From a virus: a DNA stretch of 64,000 bases. How positions within the stretch are numbered: the first letter of the stretch is position 1; the number at the start of each line of letters is the position of its first letter. This document shows, piece after piece, positions 3,441-50,324 of this stretch. The DNA is taken from IMG/VR virus record IMGVR_UViG_3300023717_000163. One strand, given 5' to 3'. The translations under genes and the position numbers were made by a program. Below the pieces are notes generated by a model, which was not told the origin of the DNA, made no database searches, and saw only the letters and a list, made by a program, of their open reading frames with translations.

Positions 3441-3842
3441 TTATTTGTTCAGCAACTCCCAGCCGGAATATATGTCAGCCATGACGGCGGGAACGCCGTT
3501 TTCCACTTGACTGATAGCCGCCGCAAAATTGCACATGGTCACTTTGTCGTTCACATCCGGCACATAGGTCGTTGGTACTTGCATTTCGCGGCAAACTCTT
3601 TGTATATATCCGGCGGTGTTATTCTCTATCTTTGGAGCATAGCGGTTGATAAAATCCGCTATCGTCTGGCATTTGTGTAATTTGCGATAGTTCTGCAAAG
3701 TACGGATCAGGGCACGATAACCATGTGCCATTGTCTCAAACTGGAAAAACGCCTTGTCCGTCTGCACCGCCCGAAGCCCCTGCCATTTATCTTTCGACAA
3801 ACGGAGATTGCCGGGGTTATTGTTTCTTAATCCGCGCGTCAT
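3441..3842 (-). CDS. Putative endolysin / lysis protein; conserved RNNNPGN-motif family with a paralog at 38700..39116
   Basis: 133 aa beginning MTRGLRNNNPGNLR. The N-terminus is about 70% identical to the ORF that follows the holin-like gene in region B. Lies upstream of the spanin-like pair. Confidence 0.45.
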   Translation of the reverse strand: MTRGLRNNNPGNLRLSKDKWQGLRAVQTDKAFFQFETMAHGYRALIRTLQNYRKLHKCQTIADFINRYAPKIENNTAGYIQRVCREMQVPTTYVPDVNDKVTMCNFAAAISQVENGVPAVMADIYSGWELLNK

Positions 3843-32982: not shown

Positions 32983-34302
32983 ATGGCAACTAAAGGATTA
33001 GGAAATGAAACATTGGTGACCTCCATTCTGCGTTCCAATACAGTATTGGTGGAAGTTGGTGGTAGTGTCAGACGCATTACCGTGGAAAACTTCATGAATG
33101 CTATTAATAATGGTGACGAACAAATGTTGAGGCAGGTGGCTTGGGGGATTCCAATCAAACAATCAACCCAAAGTAGCACGAACTATGGTGTGATAGGTAA
33201 TACAGCCGCATGGACAGAATACAAGTTGTATTGTGGCCGTTATCTCGTAACGAATGATGGAAGGGCTGCTAAAATGTCCCCTACCAATAGTGCGGTGTTT
33301 GCTGATGGTACTGCGGTGGATGAAACCAAAGGGCATGTGATGTGGATAGGGCCACGTTTGTATTATCGTGTACAGACTGACAGTGTAAGTGGTGTACCAG
33401 TCTTATGGCTCTCGATGCTACCTATTGGCGGTGAGTTTATTGGTGGGGCAAATGGTGGAATGTATAACTGTATCGGTGCATACAAAGGCTCCATGTCAGG
33501 TAGCGCACTTGTTTCACGTTCAGGAGTTGCACCGGCAGGCAGCAAGACAATCAACGCATTTTGGAATGCTGCACAAGTGAACGGTAAGGAATGGGGACTG
33601 ACCGATTACGATCAGAGAAAGCTTATTATGATGTTGGGGCTGTCCCAGTACGGAGATACCAATATTCAAGCCAAACTTGGTTATGGTGTGGGTGGTAGCT
33701 CCAGTAAAGACTTGTGGGCTGCTGCGGCAGCATTGCAAACTGGCGCAACAAAGAGTCTCGGTGACAATTGGGGCAAAATAGCTATTTCTGTGGTGAATGG
33801 AAGTAATACTGGAGTGGATTGTTCACGGGTGAACATGATGGGTATAGAAGATCCTTATGGGTGGCAGTGGGAATTTCTGCAAGGAGTATTTTGCGGTAGT
33901 TCCAACAATAGTGCTCAAAGTGGAACGGAAATTTTCATTTACAAAGGAAACCGTTTACCGACTACTGCTGAATTAGCTGCGCATCCAAATGGTGAATACA
34001 GACAAGCTACCCGTCAGACAGCTTCCGGTCAAGTGCAGGAAATAATTCTTGGGGAGCATTTTGATATTTTCCCGAAAAAGATTGGTGGAAACAGCACTTC
34101 TTATTGGGCTGATTATTCATGGGCAAACACTACTGGGCAGCTGGTTCTTTGGGGCGGTAATGCGTATGCCGGTGCGTATTGCGGCCTCGCTTATGCGGGC
34201 TCGGATAGCGCTTGGTCGAGCTCGCGTGCGGACTTCGGCTCTCGCCTTGCGTATTTTGGGAATTTAACATTTGTTAGCGGTGCATCTTTGATGGCTGCAT
34301 AA
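32983..34302 (+). CDS. DGR target protein 1 (tail-fibre/receptor-binding candidate) with the C-terminal variable repeat VR1
   Basis: 439 aa. The C-terminus LVLWGGNAYAGAYCGLAYAGSDSAWSSSRADFGSRLA matches the TR 120 bp downstream except at TR adenines. Confidence 0.7.
   Translation: MATKGLGNETLVTSILRSNTVLVEVGGSVRRITVENFMNAINNGDEQMLRQVAWGIPIKQSTQSSTNYGVIGNTAAWTEYKLYCGRYLVTNDGRAAKMSPTNSAVFADGTAVDETKGHVMWIGPRLYYRVQTDSVSGVPVLWLSMLPIGGEFIGGANGGMYNCIGAYKGSMSGSALVSRSGVAPAGSKTINAFWNAAQVNGKEWGLTDYDQRKLIMMLGLSQYGDTNIQAKLGYGVGGSSSKDLWAAAAALQTGATKSLGDNWGKIAISVVNGSNTGVDCSRVNMMGIEDPYGWQWEFLQGVFCGSSNNSAQSGTEIFIYKGNRLPTTAELAAHPNGEYRQATRQTASGQVQEIILGEHFDIFPKKIGGNSTSYWADYSWANTTGQLVLWGGNAYAGAYCGLAYAGSDSAWSSSRADFGSRLAYFGNLTFVSGASLMAA
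34139..34246 (+). repeat. DGR variable repeat VR1
   Basis: About 108-bp match to the TR. Of the 15 differences, 14 fall at TR adenine positions. Confidence 0.7.
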
Positions 34303-34425
34303 TAGATTTTGAAATATTAGTTCTTTGAATTTCAATTAATTAAAACCCGTCCACCTTCTCGTTTTACGGCAACGGATAACGGGACGAAAGCCGAAAGGCG
34401 TGGACGGTTGGCAGAGGGGAACAAG

Positions 34426-34532
34426 AGCTGGTTCTTTGGGGCGGTAATGCGAATAACGGTGCGAATTGCGGCCTCGCTTATGCGAACTCGAATAACGATT
34501 GGTCGAACTCGAATGCGAATATCGGCTCTCGC
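34426..34532 (+). repeat. DGR template repeat (TR)
   Basis: Non-coding copy rich in AAT/AAC triplets (reads LVLWGGNANNGANCGLAYANSNNDWSNSNANIGSR). Lies between the target gene and the RT. Confidence 0.7.
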
Positions 34533-34818
34533 CATACTTATTTATCGTAGAGTAATCTGCGAGTTCTCCGAGCCATGACCTTGCAGGATTTATATCGTTG
34601 CAACGTAGTAATCAATTGGTTACGATGTCAGAAAATCAAGAATGCGGAAAGGTTGCCCAATTTGCGAAAGGCAACAAGCGGTGTTAGTAGGTTGGTTCTC
34701 GAAAGCTCCGGGCGAATTATTCAAGCAAGTAAAAACAGCTTGCAGTTATCGGAATAATTAAAATAGTCTGAACAAGACAAAATTGGAAGTATGGTGTAAA
34801 TTTTAAAACAAAGCAGCA

Positions 34819-36362
34819 GTGAATATTGGAAGAAGTGATATTGATTGGAAGAGTCTATCGCATAATGAAATTGATAGAATTATAGCGGAAAGGATAGAGG
34901 CTGACAATAAACGGATAGAAGCAAACGGTGGAAAGAAATCTAAAAGAGCCGGGTATATTCTTGAACGTATAGCAGAGATAAATAATTTACGTGAAGCGGA
35001 CAAAGAAGCACAAGATGGGAAGGTTAAGAAAAACCGCTTTATCAGGCGGCATAATCTACACCCGGAAGAAGACCTCCGAGCTTTGCAGTTGATGATCCTG
35101 ACATTGGATTTTCCGGCACCGGATTATAGCGTAATGAGAGTAAAAAGTGATGCAGGAAAGGTTCGAGATATTGTCAAACAGAAATATTTCCCGTGGCGTA
35201 TATTGCACCATGCAATTATGAGGGTGATTGAAGAAGATGTTTATAGAAATTTGATTTATGATACAAGTGCGTGTATCAAGGGAAAGGGATTACATTTTGG
35301 AGTAAGGAGAATGAAACGTTTTCTTCACCGGTACCCGGAATACAAATGGTTCGTAAAGACTGATTTCAAAAAGTTCTATCAAAGTATTCTTCATGAGCTT
35401 ATTGTTGCTGCATTGAGAAGGAAATTCAAAGATGAACGATTTATTAAATTGATCGAGATAGCTGTTTTATCGTATGACAGCGGAACAGAGTTAGTTGACG
35501 TATTGGAGAATGAAGTTGAACGGAAGAAGAGGTGTTCCGATTGGAGCATTTACAAGCCAACCTATCGGGAATTTTGCGGCAAGCCGGATAGATCATACAA
35601 TGAAGGAGAAATATCGTGTCAAATGCCTGCATAGATATTGCGATGATAATGTTATGCTGGCTCGTTCTAAGGCCGAAGCGTTGTTTCTTATTCGTGCGTA
35701 TGAACGGGAAAGTGCAAAAGTTGGGTTGGTAGTTAAAGCAAACAGTTGTATTGCTCCGATAGGAACAGAAACAAAAAATGGGAACAAAAAGCATAGAAAG
35801 CGAAAACGTAGTAAGAGGAAGAAGGATTAACTTTTTGGGCTATTGCTTCACGAAAGATAATGTTCGGATGCGTAAAAATATGAAAAAGAACTTTGCCCGA
35901 AAGGTGAAACGAATAAAAAGCCGGAAACGTAACCGCGAGATACGAGCTTCATACTGGGGCTGGTGTAAGTGGGGAGATTGTAAGAATTTATGGAGAACAA
36001 TAACAAATAATGATATGAGTTTTGCAGATAAAGGTATCAAACAGAGTGGTAGAACAAAGGACGGAAAGAAGTTCTTCGATGTAAAAGAGACAAGATTGAT
36101 GGATATTCTCAATGTCCCTATAACAGTGGTGGACTTTGAAACGAATGTGAAGACAAAGCAAGGTGAAGGTAGATATTGTGTTCTTTTTGAACAGAACGGA
36201 CAACGTAGCAAATTCATAACGAACTGTTACAATCTGAAAGATGTGTTGGATCAGGCTCGCGAAGCGGAGAATAACGGTCAGAAGATTTTTCCAGTGGAAA
36301 ATGTGATTGTCAAGCGGCGTTCGTTAGGTGACGGGAAGAGTGCTTATTATTTTGAAGAATAA
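34819..36362 (+). CDS. DGR reverse transcriptase, interrupted by two apparent frameshifts (three ORF-track pieces)
   Basis: GTG start. Motif A VKTDFKKFYQSILHELI is in frame 1. Motifs B and C GVPIGAFTSQ and RYCDDNVMLA are in frame 2 (35495..35830). INFLGYCF is in frame 3 (35778..36362). The shifts fall at purine and A runs near 35515-35535 and 35770-35790. Confidence 0.7.
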
Positions 36363-36383: not shown

Positions 36384-36779
36384 ATGAAAAGTTATGGAAC
36401 TCTTGTAGGAGAACTGCCGACTGGTATTGAATTTGTAGTTGAAGGTGCGTTGCTACGCATTTACTTCGACTTTGAGAGAAGAGAAGCTGTTCAAAAGGCC
36501 GGTTCGGAAGATGTGGTGGTTGAAGACCAGTATGTCTGTGAAAACGTGGATGTTGAAGGGGAACATGATTATGACAGTATTGTAAGTGCCATTATCATGG
36601 AACGTTATGATGCGAATAAACGTGATGCCATTTTCGCCAACTTGGAAATGGCACGTGATATGGCTTCGGAACTTGACGAAGGTAAGCGTGCCGAATATCT
36701 GAAAGAATACACTGATTATCAGAGTTATCGTATCAAGGCTAAGGAGATCGCAAAAGAAGTATTAGCAAAATTGAAGTAA
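36384..36779 (+). CDS. Hypothetical acidic protein
   Basis: 131-aa ORF after the RT. Confidence 0.45.
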   Translation: MKSYGTLVGELPTGIEFVVEGALLRIYFDFERREAVQKAGSEDVVVEDQYVCENVDVEGEHDYDSIVSAIIMERYDANKRDAIFANLEMARDMASELDEGKRAEYLKEYTDYQSYRIKAKEIAKEVLAKLK

Positions 36780-49739: not shown

Positions 49740-50324
49740 TTACTTTTTTCCAATCAGAAAGTCTTTCCACAATTCTTTGAATTGTTCTCCAAAGTAAATT
49801 GCGATTTCACTTGATTTTACAGCAAGGCGAGAGCCGATATACGCAGACGAGGACGACCAAGCGGAAGCCGAGTTCGCAGAAGCGAGGCCGCAAAACGCAC
49901 CGAAATTCGCAGAACCGCCCCAAAGAACCAGCCGATTACGATCCTCTTCGTCCATTTCATCAATTTCTTTTTGATTATAAAGATAAAACCACGGCGTATA
50001 ACGGTATTCATCTTTAGTAAATCGTGGAAAATCAGGATCGTTGTTTAACGCACGGGCAATAGTGTATAGTTTGATGTAGGCGAGGTGTGCAATATCAGCC
50101 ACTTCTTCTTTGTGTCCGTCTTCATCTTCAACAAGTAGGCGAACAATGGGTTTTACACCTATTGCTTCACAAGCATCTTCGTAGGTTTTAATATTGTGAT
50201 AATCTGTATAATCCGGCTTTTGCTTTCCGAATAGGGCTGTTAGAATACTAATTGCTTTAGGACAGTCGTTTGCTTCACTAAAAGCGGCTGTTACCTTTTC
50301 TTGTGTGATTTTAAGTTCTGACAT
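49740..50324 (-). CDS. DGR target protein 2 (194 aa) carrying the remote variable repeat VR2
   Basis: C-terminal LVLWGGSANFGAFCGLASANSASAWSSSSAYIGSRLA. All 17 nucleotide differences from the TR fall at TR adenines. Confidence 0.6.
   Translation of the reverse strand: MSELKITQEKVTAAFSEANDCPKAISILTALFGKQKPDYTDYHNIKTYEDACEAIGVKPIVRLLVEDEDGHKEEVADIAHLAYIKLYTIARALNNDPDFPRFTKDEYRYTPWFYLYNQKEIDEMDEEDRNRLVLWGGSANFGAFCGLASANSASAWSSSSAYIGSRLAVKSSEIAIYFGEQFKELWKDFLIGKK
49826..49933 (-). repeat. DGR variable repeat VR2 (about 15 kb from the TR, on the opposite strand)
   Basis: Reverse complement aligned to the TR by hand across its full ~108-bp length. The 17 mismatches are all A-to-N. Confidence 0.65.

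What the first reader, a model, noticed from the sequence alone, without database searches (positions are those of the whole stretch)
35495..35830. DGR reverse transcriptase is split across three reading frames
RT motifs A, B/C and the LGY thumb segment lie in three different frames. The shifts fall at a purine run (gaacggaagaagagg, about 35515-35535) and at A5-A6 runs (35770-35790). Yet VR1 and VR2 show fresh-looking adenine-specific divergence. This could be a recently inactivated RT, a programmed frameshift, or homopolymer sequencing error.
Basis: seen in the sequence. Interest (0 to 1): 0.55.

Follow-up and report, generated by a model that had tools for sequence, protein, structure and literature searches.

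The report
Phage reverse transcriptase in three frames
The mutagenic reverse transcriptase of a very common human-gut Bacteroides phage really is encoded in three overlapping reading frames; this was published in 2021, it is conserved and functional, and it may be made as three separate protein pieces rather than by ribosomal frameshifting.

Summary
The window is LoVEphage/"Quimbyvirus", a Bacteroides/Phocaeicola prophage. Its DGR reverse transcriptase (RT) lies in three frames, each shifted +1: 34819-35634, 35495-35830 and 35778-36362.

It is not a sequencing error or a recent pseudogene:
- The same layout occurs in about 90 independent assemblies, down to about 50% protein identity.
- All three segments have dN/dS of 0.02-0.16.
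- Genomes with identical RT DNA carry different variable repeats, mutated at template adenines.

The three-frame RT and its apparent activity were already reported by Benler et al. 2021, who suggested "two programmed frameshifts". No experiment or slippery site was found in the searchable literature.

My comparative data question that reading:
- No conserved slippery codon, slow codon or covarying structure exists at either junction.
- Each downstream frame carries a conserved start codon just upstream of its first conserved motif. This is ATG in about 90-97% of lineages, otherwise TTG or GTG at or near that position. The overlapping old-frame residue varies (N/D/H/Y), and the context is A-rich and unstructured.

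My best reading (about 0.5) is three separately initiated polypeptides that assemble into one RT. Double +1 frameshifting (about 0.33) remains a serious rival. The feature itself is already known; the expression mechanism is open and easy to test.

The parts
32983..34302 (+). DGR target gene 1 (tail protein, 439 aa) with VR1 at its 3' end
   Evidence: ORF list. GenBank homologues are annotated as tail protein / Mtd_N-like.
34139..34246 (+). Variable repeat 1 (VR1)
   Evidence: It aligns to the TR, and all core mismatches are at TR adenines. About 25 columns differ between 7 near-identical genomes.
34426..34533 (+). Template repeat (TR)
   Evidence: Repeat search and TR/VR alignment.
34819..35634 (+). 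RT piece 1 (frame 1; GTG start). Holds the N-terminal extension, fingers and motif A. Conserved to about 35529; the last ~35 codons are an out-of-frame tail over motif B DNA.
   Evidence: dN/dS 0.06-0.13.
35510..35512 (+). Conserved ATG in frame 2, six codons upstream of R-G-V-P-I-G. Candidate start codon of RT piece 2.
   Evidence: ATG lies 4-8 codons upstream in most lineages, and TTG at -7/-8 in the four without it. The key NAY codon is NAT in 32/32 lineages against a 60% baseline.
35495..35830 (+). RT piece 2 (frame 2 open stretch). Holds motif B (RGVPIGAFTSQ), motif C (RYCDD), motif D and a K/R-rich tail (KKHRKRKRSKRKKD*).
   Evidence: dN/dS 0.02-0.16. The K/R-rich tract is conserved in frame 2 with synonymous changes.
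35778..35780 (+). Conserved ATG in frame 0, 16 codons upstream of INFLGY. Candidate start codon of RT piece 3.
   Evidence: Present in 36/37 lineages. It is created by frame-2 NAT-G dicodons (AAT 14, GAT 8, TAT 8, CAT 6). GTG occurs in the two lineages that lack it, at the same place in L172 and at -14 in L079.
35778..36362 (+). RT piece 3 (frame 0). Holds GRRINFLGY (motif E), the thumb and a ~110-aa extra C-terminal domain.
   Evidence: dN/dS 0.02-0.14. Annotated as a separate CDS in all GenBank records.
49826..49933 (-). Variable repeat 2 (VR2), a distal second DGR target
   Evidence: mismatches to the TR are at adenines.

Best explanation
This is the active reverse transcriptase of the LoVEphage/Quimbyvirus diversity-generating retroelement. 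It is genuinely and anciently encoded in three overlapping reading frames, each +1 relative to the previous one.

Shown:
- The layout is real.
- It is conserved across a large clade of Bacteroidales prophages.
- Every segment is under purifying selection in its own frame.
- The joined product is predicted to fold as a complete DGR RT.
- Adenine mutagenesis has continued in genomes that carry it.

Inferred (most likely mode of expression): the three frames are translated as three separate polypeptides.
- Piece 1 runs from the GTG at 34819.
- Piece 2 runs from the conserved ATG at 35510 (MKLNGR-RGVPIG...).
- Piece 3 runs from the conserved ATG at 35778 (MGTKSIESENVVR-GRRINFLGY...).

Both internal start codons sit in A-rich, weakly structured stretches. 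From my own knowledge, that is what SD-independent initiation in Bacteroidetes favours. The pieces would then assemble non-covalently into one RT, with breaks in two surface loops: between motifs A and B, and between motifs D and E.
For: Real and conserved:
- 77 of 87 loci in the first set show the same +1/+1 pattern, at 51-100% identity.
- Four further diverged lineages repeat both +1 splits.
- Isolate genomes of B. acidifaciens, Bacteroides sp. GD17, Paramuribaculum, Lepagella and Muribaculaceae do the same.

Functional:
- dN/dS is 0.02-0.16 for all three segments.
- RT DNA at 34919-36099 is identical in 7 genomes whose VR1 differs at about 25 columns, almost all at TR adenines.
- The AF2 model of the joined protein has pLDDT 83.8. 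Its best PDB match is the Bordetella DGR RT 8ub7_A at TM 0.87. Both junctions fall in low-confidence loops.

Separate initiation:
- New-frame ATG lies 4-8 codons before RG[VIL]PIG in most of the ~36 lineages. The four lineages without it have TTG from CTT-GAA. One lineage (L171) instead has its ATG ~18-21 codons upstream, at the start of the open window.
- Frame-0 ATG lies 12-22 codons before IDFLGY in 36/37 lineages. The exceptions have GTG.
- The overlapped old-frame residue varies among N/D/H/Y while A-T-G is fixed. The third base is T in 32/32 and 36/36 lineages against a 0.60 baseline.
- Lineages split at only one site start exactly at these ATGs: P0125 MKGGRGITIG and P0140 MRRQGIRIG. L087 has the ATG at site 2.
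- Windows around the ATGs are less structured than 83% of windows in the same gene. They are more A-rich than 80% (site 1) and 94% (site 2) of those windows.
- No conserved slippery codon exists. The last possible zero-frame codon before the first new-frame Arg is AAA, AAG, GAA, GGA, GAT, CAG, ACG, AAT or AGT. In several lineages the permissible window is only 5 codons.
- There is no covariation in the only recurrent downstream hairpin.
- The phage has no frameshift-suppressor tRNA.
Against: - No protein-level data exist.
- I know of no naturally three-piece RT whose palm is split between motifs A and B.
- Both shifts are always +1, and the frames always overlap so that a continuous read-through is possible. 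That is what frameshifting requires, although +1 is also the frame in which common NAT-G dicodons create ATG.
- Purine-rich motifs recur at both junctions in the window (GGAAGAAG at 35522-29 and 35817-24; A-AGA-GG at site 1).
- The frame-2 stop lies close behind junction 2 in about 30 of 38 lineages.
- A-richness around the ATGs is partly a by-product of K/R-rich coding.
- The unshifted control set for ATG frequency is small, about 8 lineages.
- Piece 1 would carry a variable out-of-frame C-terminal tail.
Confidence: 0.5

Rival explanations
1. Two programmed +1 ribosomal frameshifts, the published suggestion. Ribosomes that start at 34819 shift +1 just before the Arg codon at 35528 (e.g. CGG AAG [A] AGA GGT). 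They shift +1 again at about 35813-35817 (AGT AAG [A] GGA AGA AGG ATT). The result is one ~513-aa RT plus truncated by-products, and expression of the mutagenic enzyme is kept low.
For: - Benler et al. 2021 proposed this.
- The frames overlap in every lineage, so a continuous product is possible.
- Both shifts are always +1.
- Purine-rich, Lys/Arg-codon-rich sequence sits at both junctions, with the 8-mer GGAAGAAG shared in phase in the window.
- The old-frame stop TGA/TAA follows junction 2 within 2-4 codons in about 30 of 38 lineages.
- Single variants with one fewer A at site 1 (P0005) or two more A at 35773-78 (L009) give in-frame junctions.
- The joined protein models as an intact DGR RT.
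Against: - No conserved P-site codon capable of +1 re-pairing exists. Several lineages have no Lys codon, or any recurrent codon, in the ≤5-codon permissible window at site 1.
- Zero-frame A-site codons at site 1 are common ones (AAG, GAG, GCG, CAG), not rare or stop codons.
- There is no covarying downstream structure.
- This model gives no reason for the near-universal ATG/GTG/TTG in the incoming frame, nor for the fixed third-position T.
Confidence: 0.33
2. Recoding at the RNA level. This would be RNA-polymerase slippage on the short A/purine runs, or another mRNA edit, that restores a single frame in a fraction of transcripts.
For: A5-A6 runs lie at or near both junctions in many lineages: AAAAAGAGG at site 1, and A6 at 35773-78 in the window. 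Variants that differ by the number of A's exist.
Against: - The window itself has no homopolymer at site 1 (GGAAGAAGAGG).
- Many lineages lack runs of 5 or more at one or both sites.
- From my own knowledge, known productive slippage needs about 7-9 identical bases or a hairpin.
- The frame-2 K/R tract downstream of the A6 run is conserved as protein. Slippage at that run would bypass it.
Confidence: 0.05
3. The RT is dead, through frameshift mutations inherited from a recent ancestor. VR diversity would then be old or produced by another RT in trans.
For: Individual dead copies do exist. L040/L076 have an 11-nt deletion that removes YCDD. P0001/P0003 are deletion fusions. L185/L189 carry extra shifts.
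Against: - The layout is conserved to about 50% identity with dN/dS of 0.02-0.16 in each frame.
- All catalytic motifs are intact.
- VR1 is different in each of 7 genomes that share the identical three-frame RT.
- Benler 2021 reports 22 variable adenine sites among genomes with >95% ANI.
Confidence: 0.03
4. Sequencing or assembly error at homopolymers in this one assembly.
For: One old metagenome contig (L009) shows A8 instead of A6 and another extra A. This is typical of homopolymer error.
Against: Identical junction sequences occur in 6 GenBank records from different laboratories, including two induced phages, and in about 25 IMG/VR contigs with ≥91% identity in the first RT segment. They also occur in three GTDB genomes at 97-100% identity, including B. 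acidifaciens DSM 15896. The same frames occur in far-diverged sequences.
Confidence: 0.01

Closest known systems
Quimbyvirus DGR RT (Benler et al. 2021, Microbiome 9:78, PMC8008677)
   Same: The element is the same or nearly the same. [quoted passage not shown] Adenine-specific VR variation occurs among near-identical genomes.
   Different: The paper infers 'two programmed frameshifts' but gives no junction analysis. Here the layout is traced through about 40 diverged lineages, single-split lineages are found, and conserved start codons in the incoming frames are documented.
Bordetella phage BPP-1 DGR reverse transcriptase bRT (PDB 8ub7)
   Same: Same fold (TM 0.87, 24% identity), the same SQ-containing motif B and YxDD, and the same TR/VR adenine mutagenesis logic.
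   Different: bRT is one ORF of ~330 aa that works with the separate accessory protein Avd. This RT is in three frames, has an N-terminal extension and a ~110-aa C-terminal domain, and no Avd-like gene was recognised between TR and RT.
Programmed +1 frameshift sites (bacterial prfB CUU UGA C; yeast Ty1 CUU AGG C; Listeria phage PSA capsid/tail genes) - recalled from my own knowledge
   Same: Direction of shift (+1), overlapping ORFs, and a possible role in limiting the amount of the downstream product. In the window, AAG AGG resembles the Ty1 'hungry AGG' arrangement.
   Different: Those sites have an invariant slippery codon plus a slow or stop A-site codon, and often a stimulator. None of these is conserved here.
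Polymerases naturally split into separate polypeptides (e.g. 'splipalmivirus' narnavirus RdRp with the palm divided between two proteins; split archaeal PolB) - recalled from my own knowledge
   Same: A right-hand polymerase whose catalytic motifs would lie on different polypeptides that must assemble.
   Different: Those are RNA- or DNA-dependent polymerases encoded on separate segments or genes. Here it would be a reverse transcriptase cut twice, encoded by overlapping +1 frames. It is not experimentally shown.

Membership tests
Diversity-generating retroelement (DGR) | RT with DGR-type motif B ([ILV]GxxxSQ) and a YxDD catalytic motif | tested here: met
   RGVPIGAFTSQ and RYCDD lie in frame 2. 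RVT_1 hits. Best structural match is the Bordetella DGR RT, TM 0.87.
Diversity-generating retroelement (DGR) | TR/VR pair whose differences fall at TR adenines | tested here: met
   All core mismatches of VR1 and VR2 to the TR are at adenines. VR1 varies between genomes.
Diversity-generating retroelement (DGR) | VR at the 3' end of a target gene with a C-type-lectin/Mtd-like fold | tested here: inconclusive
   VR1 lies in the last ~55 codons of the 439-aa tail protein. GenBank notes give an Mtd_N-like structural match. The fold was not modelled here. Pfam gave only a sub-threshold lectin-domain hit.
Diversity-generating retroelement (DGR) | Accessory protein (Avd or HRDC-type) next to the RT | not tested
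   No convincing ORF lies between the TR and the RT. The RT has an extra C-terminal domain, and a 131-aa ORF follows it (36384-36779). Neither was analysed.
Programmed +1 ribosomal frameshifting | Conserved shift-prone P-site codon that can re-pair in the +1 frame | tested here: not met
   The codon preceding the first obligatory new-frame codon varies (AAA, AAG, GAA, GGA, GAT, CAG, ACG, AAT, AGT). Some lineages have only a 5-codon window with no recurrent codon. At site 2, xGG AAG is frequent but replaced by CAG or GAG in others.
Programmed +1 ribosomal frameshifting | Slow (rare or stop) zero-frame A-site codon at the shift | tested here: not met
   Site 1 has common codons AAG, GAG, GCG or CAG in that position. 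At site 2 the stop lies 2-4 codons after the last position at which the shift could occur, given conservation of G-R-x-I-D in the new frame.
Programmed +1 ribosomal frameshifting | Stimulatory element (upstream SD-like sequence or downstream structure) supported by conservation or covariation | tested here: inconclusive
   Windows downstream of site 1 are relatively stable. The recurrent stem comes from the repeated P-I-G codons and shows no covariation (72.0% paired vs 70.7% in shuffles; 88/500). Purine-rich AAGAGG is common but overlaps the obligatory Arg-Gly codons.
Programmed +1 ribosomal frameshifting | Trans-frame protein product | not testable with these tools
   Needs proteomics or tagged expression.
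Separately initiated overlapping genes (split enzyme) | Conserved start codon at the head of each downstream ORF, upstream of its first conserved residue | tested here: met
   Site 1 has ATG in most lineages, with TTG in the four that lack it. Site 2 has ATG in 36/37 lineages, with GTG in L172 and L079. Third base T is found in 32/32 and 36/36 lineages against a 0.60 baseline.
Separately initiated overlapping genes (split enzyme) | Initiation-competent context (for Bacteroidetes: A-rich, unstructured) | tested here: inconclusive
   The ATG windows are less structured than 83% of windows in the same gene. They are more A-rich than 80% (site 1) and 94% (site 2) of those windows. K/R-rich coding would also produce this.
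Separately initiated overlapping genes (split enzyme) | Separate stable polypeptides that assemble into an active enzyme | not testable with these tools
   Needs biochemistry.
LoVEphage / Quimbyvirus | Near-identity of genome sequence to the described phage | tested here: met
   98.5-100% identity over 2.1 kb to six LoVEphage-type records. Features match the Quimbyvirus description.

The most novel reading that the evidence does not exclude
The DGR reverse transcriptase of LoVEphage/Quimbyvirus and its relatives would be a naturally split enzyme. Three separately initiated polypeptides would be involved: fingers plus motif A; motifs B-D with a K/R-rich tail; and motif E, thumb and C-terminal domain. 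They would be encoded in overlapping +1 frames and would assemble non-covalently. This would be the first split reverse transcriptase, and it would overturn the published 'two programmed frameshifts' reading.
Probability: 0.5. Interest if true: 0.75.

Novelty: already known. Interest (0 to 1): 0.5.

Why it matters
LoVEphage/Quimbyvirus was the most commonly detected of the induced temperate phages in one survey of human gut viromes (about 8% of 1,241 viromes). Its DGR diversifies a tail protein and a second, distal target.

How its RT is made decides how much mutagenic enzyme a lysogen contains. It also decides whether gene callers and DGR finders, which expect one RT ORF, will recognise such elements at all. 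GenBank records annotate only the first piece as RT.

If the enzyme is a three-piece assembly, it shows that a right-hand RT palm tolerates two natural breaks. That is of interest for RT evolution and for engineering split or inducible DGR mutagenesis systems. If it is double +1 frameshifting, it is a new kind of shift site without a canonical slippery codon in a phylum with unusual translation initiation.

Simple silent-mutation experiments can decide between the two.

Tried and rejected
1. Sequencing error. Rejected by identical junctions in many independent assemblies. The one contig with an in-frame junction 2 (L009) has A8 instead of A6 plus another stray A, which is typical homopolymer error.

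2. Apparently unshifted close relatives L040/L076. These turned out to carry an 11-nt deletion that removes the YCDD codons. That deletion happens to bring frames 1 and 0 together, so they are dead copies, not intact RTs.

3. A phage-encoded +1 suppressor tRNA with an expanded anticodon. There is no tRNA in the window. The eight LoVEphage tRNAs that ARAGORN detects all have ordinary anticodons, and none is Lys, Arg or Gly. A ninth annotated tRNA ('tRNA-His/Undet') was not detected or examined.

4. A Ty1-like AAG-AGG 'hungry codon' slip at site 1. Rejected as a general mechanism. The new-frame Arg codon varies synonymously (AGA, CGC, CGA, CGT), so the new frame is already being read there. The old-frame dicodon is GAG AGC, GCG CGG, GCG TGG and so on in other lineages.

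5. A stop-codon-stimulated shift at GAT TAA / CAT TGA at site 2. Rejected because the new-frame G-R-x-I upstream of it is conserved with synonymous changes.

6. A conserved stimulatory hairpin downstream of site 1. The pairing potential comes from the repeated P-I-G codons and shows no covariation.

7. The unshifted Prevotella-type RTs might carry a fossil of the out-of-frame tail (RYCRWASKEQPTRDF vs RCSDWSIYKPTYREF). The +1 reading of that DNA shows nothing recognisable, so this is unresolved.

8. The prfB frameshift paper holds nothing on Bacteroidota.

9. No paper that tests the mechanism was found.
Full report
**1. What is in the window**

The stretch 32983-36362 is a DGR cassette. It contains:
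- a 439-aa tail-protein gene ending in VR1 (34139-34246);
- the template repeat (34426-34533);
- a reverse transcriptase whose conserved motifs lie in three different frames.

The three RT segments are as follows.
- Frame 1 (34819-35634) holds the N-terminal extension, fingers and motif A (KTDFKKFYQSI).
- Frame 2 (open 35495-35830) holds RGVPIGAFTSQ, RYCDD and motif D. It ends in a K/R-rich tail (KKHRKRKRSKRKKD*).
- Frame 0 (open from 35763, ATG at 35778, to 36362) holds GRRINFLGY, the thumb and an extra ~110-aa C-terminal domain.

Pfam RVT_1 matches the first two ORFs over complementary halves of the profile. Both transitions are +1. A second VR lies at 49826-49933 on the minus strand. In both VRs every core mismatch to the TR is at a TR adenine.

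**2. Identity, and what is already published**

The region is 98.5-100% identical to six GenBank records of Bacteroides phage LoVEphage and relatives. These include two phages induced from B. intestinalis and P. vulgatus. Every record annotates the same split ORFs and calls only the first one 'reverse transcriptase'.

Benler et al. 2021 (PMC8008677) describe 'Quimbyvirus', a B. dorei-type prophage with the same features. [quoted passage not shown] They also report that 22 adenine sites vary among genomes with >95% ANI.

Neither the LoVEphage paper nor the 2025 Nature paper that induced LoVEphage discusses the frames. I found no paper that tests the mechanism. The feature itself is therefore already known.

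**3. Not an error, not a recent pseudogene**

An alignment of the window with the six records shows no difference at all between 34919 and 36099. VR1 differs in every genome at about 25 columns, and almost all of these map to TR adenines. Mutagenesis therefore continued after the three-frame layout arose.

Further evidence:
- A scan of IMG/VR returned 80 related loci at 51-100% identity in the first segment. Together with the window and the GenBank loci, 77 of 87 have the same +1/+1 pattern.
- The exceptions are truncated contigs, deletion derivatives, or one likely homopolymer error (L009, A8 for A6). L040/L076 are a further exception: an 11-nt deletion removes YCDD.
- Four more diverged lineages, found through the C-terminal piece, repeat both +1 splits.
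- So do cultured isolates of B. acidifaciens DSM 15896, Bacteroides sp. GD17, Paramuribaculum intestinale, Lepagella muris and a Muribaculaceae isolate.
- Nei-Gojobori dN/dS is 0.02-0.16 for each of the three segments, in its own frame, in nine lineage pairs.
- A conceptual joined protein, modelled with an alignment of unshifted homologues, gives pLDDT 83.8. It matches the Bordetella DGR RT (8ub7_A) at TM 0.87. The two junctions fall in low-confidence loops at residues ~221-240 and ~315-333.

**4. Where the junctions are**

At site 1 the new-frame Arg codon before G-[VIL]-P-I-G varies synonymously between lineages (AGA, CGC, CGA, CGT). The overlapping old-frame codons change meaning (K/E/A/Q). 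Frame 2 is therefore read from 35528 at the latest. The old frame is conserved as protein up to ...E-x-R-K. This also holds in unshifted homologues such as P0004, P0007 and P0010.

At site 2 the frame-2 K/R tract (consensus GKKKRKRQRG) is conserved with synonymous changes. Frame 0 is conserved from G-R-x-I-D-F-L-G-Y, also with synonymous changes. A ribosomal shift in the window would therefore have to occur within 35495-35527, and then at about 35813-35817.

Splits can occur singly:
- L087 (P0074) has only site 2.
- P0125 and P0140 have only site 1, and they lack the K/R insertion.
- P0004 and the Prevotella relatives have neither.

**5. Frameshifting or three pieces?**

I looked for the hallmarks of programmed +1 frameshifting and did not find them conserved.
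- The last zero-frame codon before the obligatory new-frame codon at site 1 is AAA, AAG, GAA, GGA, GAT, CAG, ACG, AAT or AGT in different lineages.
- In L077, L081, L085 and L170 the permissible window is only five codons. It contains no recurrent or shift-prone codon.
- The zero-frame A-site codons are common ones.
- At site 2 xGG-AAG is frequent but not universal. The stop codon lies too far downstream to be the stalled A-site codon.
- The only recurrent downstream stem is made by the two P-I-G codon triplets. It shows no covariation: 72.0% paired against 70.7% in shuffles.
- The eight tRNAs that ARAGORN detects in LoVEphage have normal anticodons.

By contrast, each incoming frame carries a start codon just upstream of its first conserved residue in virtually every lineage.
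- At site 1, ATG lies 4-8 codons before R-G in most of the ~36 distinct lineage sequences. It is made by an old-frame [N/D/Y]AT-GA[R] dicodon.
- The four lineages without it have TTG from CTT-GAA. One lineage (L171) has its ATG ~18-21 codons upstream, where the frame opens.
- At site 2, ATG lies 12-22 codons before IDFLGY in 36/37 lineages. It is made by frame-2 NAT-G (AAT 14, GAT 8, TAT 8, CAT 6).
- L172 has GTG exactly where its sister L171 has ATG. L079 has GTG at -14.

The old-frame residue is free to vary among the four NAY amino acids, while A-T-G is fixed. The synonymous third base is T in 32/32 and 36/36 lineages, against 60% NAT in the rest of these genes. Single-split lineages begin exactly at these ATGs (MKGGRGITIG, MRRQGIRIG). 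About eight unshifted lineages rarely have a +1-frame ATG at comparable positions, but this is a small control.

The 40-nt windows around both ATGs are less structured than 83% of windows in the same gene. They are more A-rich than 80% (site 1) and 94% (site 2) of those windows. From my own knowledge of Bacteroidetes translation, this fits initiation without Shine-Dalgarno pairing. It is also an expected side-effect of K/R-rich coding.

**6. Verdict on mechanism**

Frameshifting gives no reason to conserve a start codon in the incoming frame. Separate initiation explains that conservation, the start-compatible replacements and the absence of a slippery site.

Against it stand the following points:
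- A palm split between motifs A and B has no precedent among RTs, to my knowledge.
- Both shifts are always +1.
- The frames always overlap.
- There are no protein data.

I put three separately initiated, assembling polypeptides at about 0.5, double +1 ribosomal frameshifting at about 0.33, RNA-level slippage at about 0.05, and a dead RT or an error at a few percent together. Silent mutations that destroy the two ATGs, tagged westerns or junction-peptide proteomics would decide the matter.

**7. Novelty and score**

The three-frame RT and its inferred activity are already in the literature, so the finding as given is 'already known'. What this analysis adds:
- the phylogenetic depth of the layout;
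- single-split lineages;
- mapped junctions;
- the conserved-start-codon pattern, which challenges the published interpretation.

Interest is 0.5: a real and unusual feature, already reported, with an open and testable mechanism.

Noticed in passing
window 34303-34818, 36040-36362 and 36384-36779: No Avd-like accessory gene is evident between the TR and the RT. The RT family instead carries an extra ~110-aa C-terminal domain (mixed beta/alpha in the AF2 model). A conserved 131-aa ORF follows immediately. Either could take the accessory role.
   Followed up: no
window 49826-49933 (minus strand): A second variable repeat lies ~15 kb from the cassette on the opposite strand, with adenine-only differences from the TR. 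It corresponds to the distal target described for Quimbyvirus.
   Followed up: partly
L040 and L076, about 3702-3712 (IMG/VR contigs, relatives with 74% identity in the first RT segment): An 11-nt deletion removes the YCDD codons (GCGATGATAAC) and incidentally puts RT pieces 1 and 3 in one frame. These are dead copies that look like 'repaired' single-frame RTs in a tblastn frame map.
   Followed up: yes
P0001 and P0003 (database proteins, 94-99% identical to the window): These are deletion derivatives that fuse the N-terminal RT piece directly to the C-terminal domain and lose motifs B-E. Degraded copies therefore circulate alongside intact three-frame ones.
   Followed up: no
L193 (Prevotella MAG) versus window 35530-35575: Unshifted Prevotella-type RTs have an in-frame insertion (RYCRWASKEQPTRDF). 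It loosely resembles the out-of-frame tail of piece 1 in the window (RCSDWSIYKPTYREF). This may be chance, or a trace of conversion between split and fused forms.
   Followed up: partly
L197 16-858 (MW660583.1, outside the window): LoVEphage carries a cluster of eight tRNAs: Tyr, Ser, Glu, Gln, Trp, Asn, Phe and Met(CAT). The Met(CAT) gene could be an initiator, an elongator or an Ile-lysidine tRNA. None lies in the 64-kb window.
   Followed up: partly
L185 (Lepagella muris) and L189 (Muribaculaceae isolate): These prophage copies carry an additional frame break, in the C-terminal domain (L185) or the N-terminal part (L189). They are probably decaying copies or assembly errors.
   Followed up: no
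window 35537-35544 and 35561-35568: The two P-I-G codon triplets of motif B (CCGATTGG ... CCTATCGG) are nearly reverse-complementary. They form a predicted stem in many lineages, but without covariation, so the stem is a by-product of the repeated peptide motif.
   Followed up: yes
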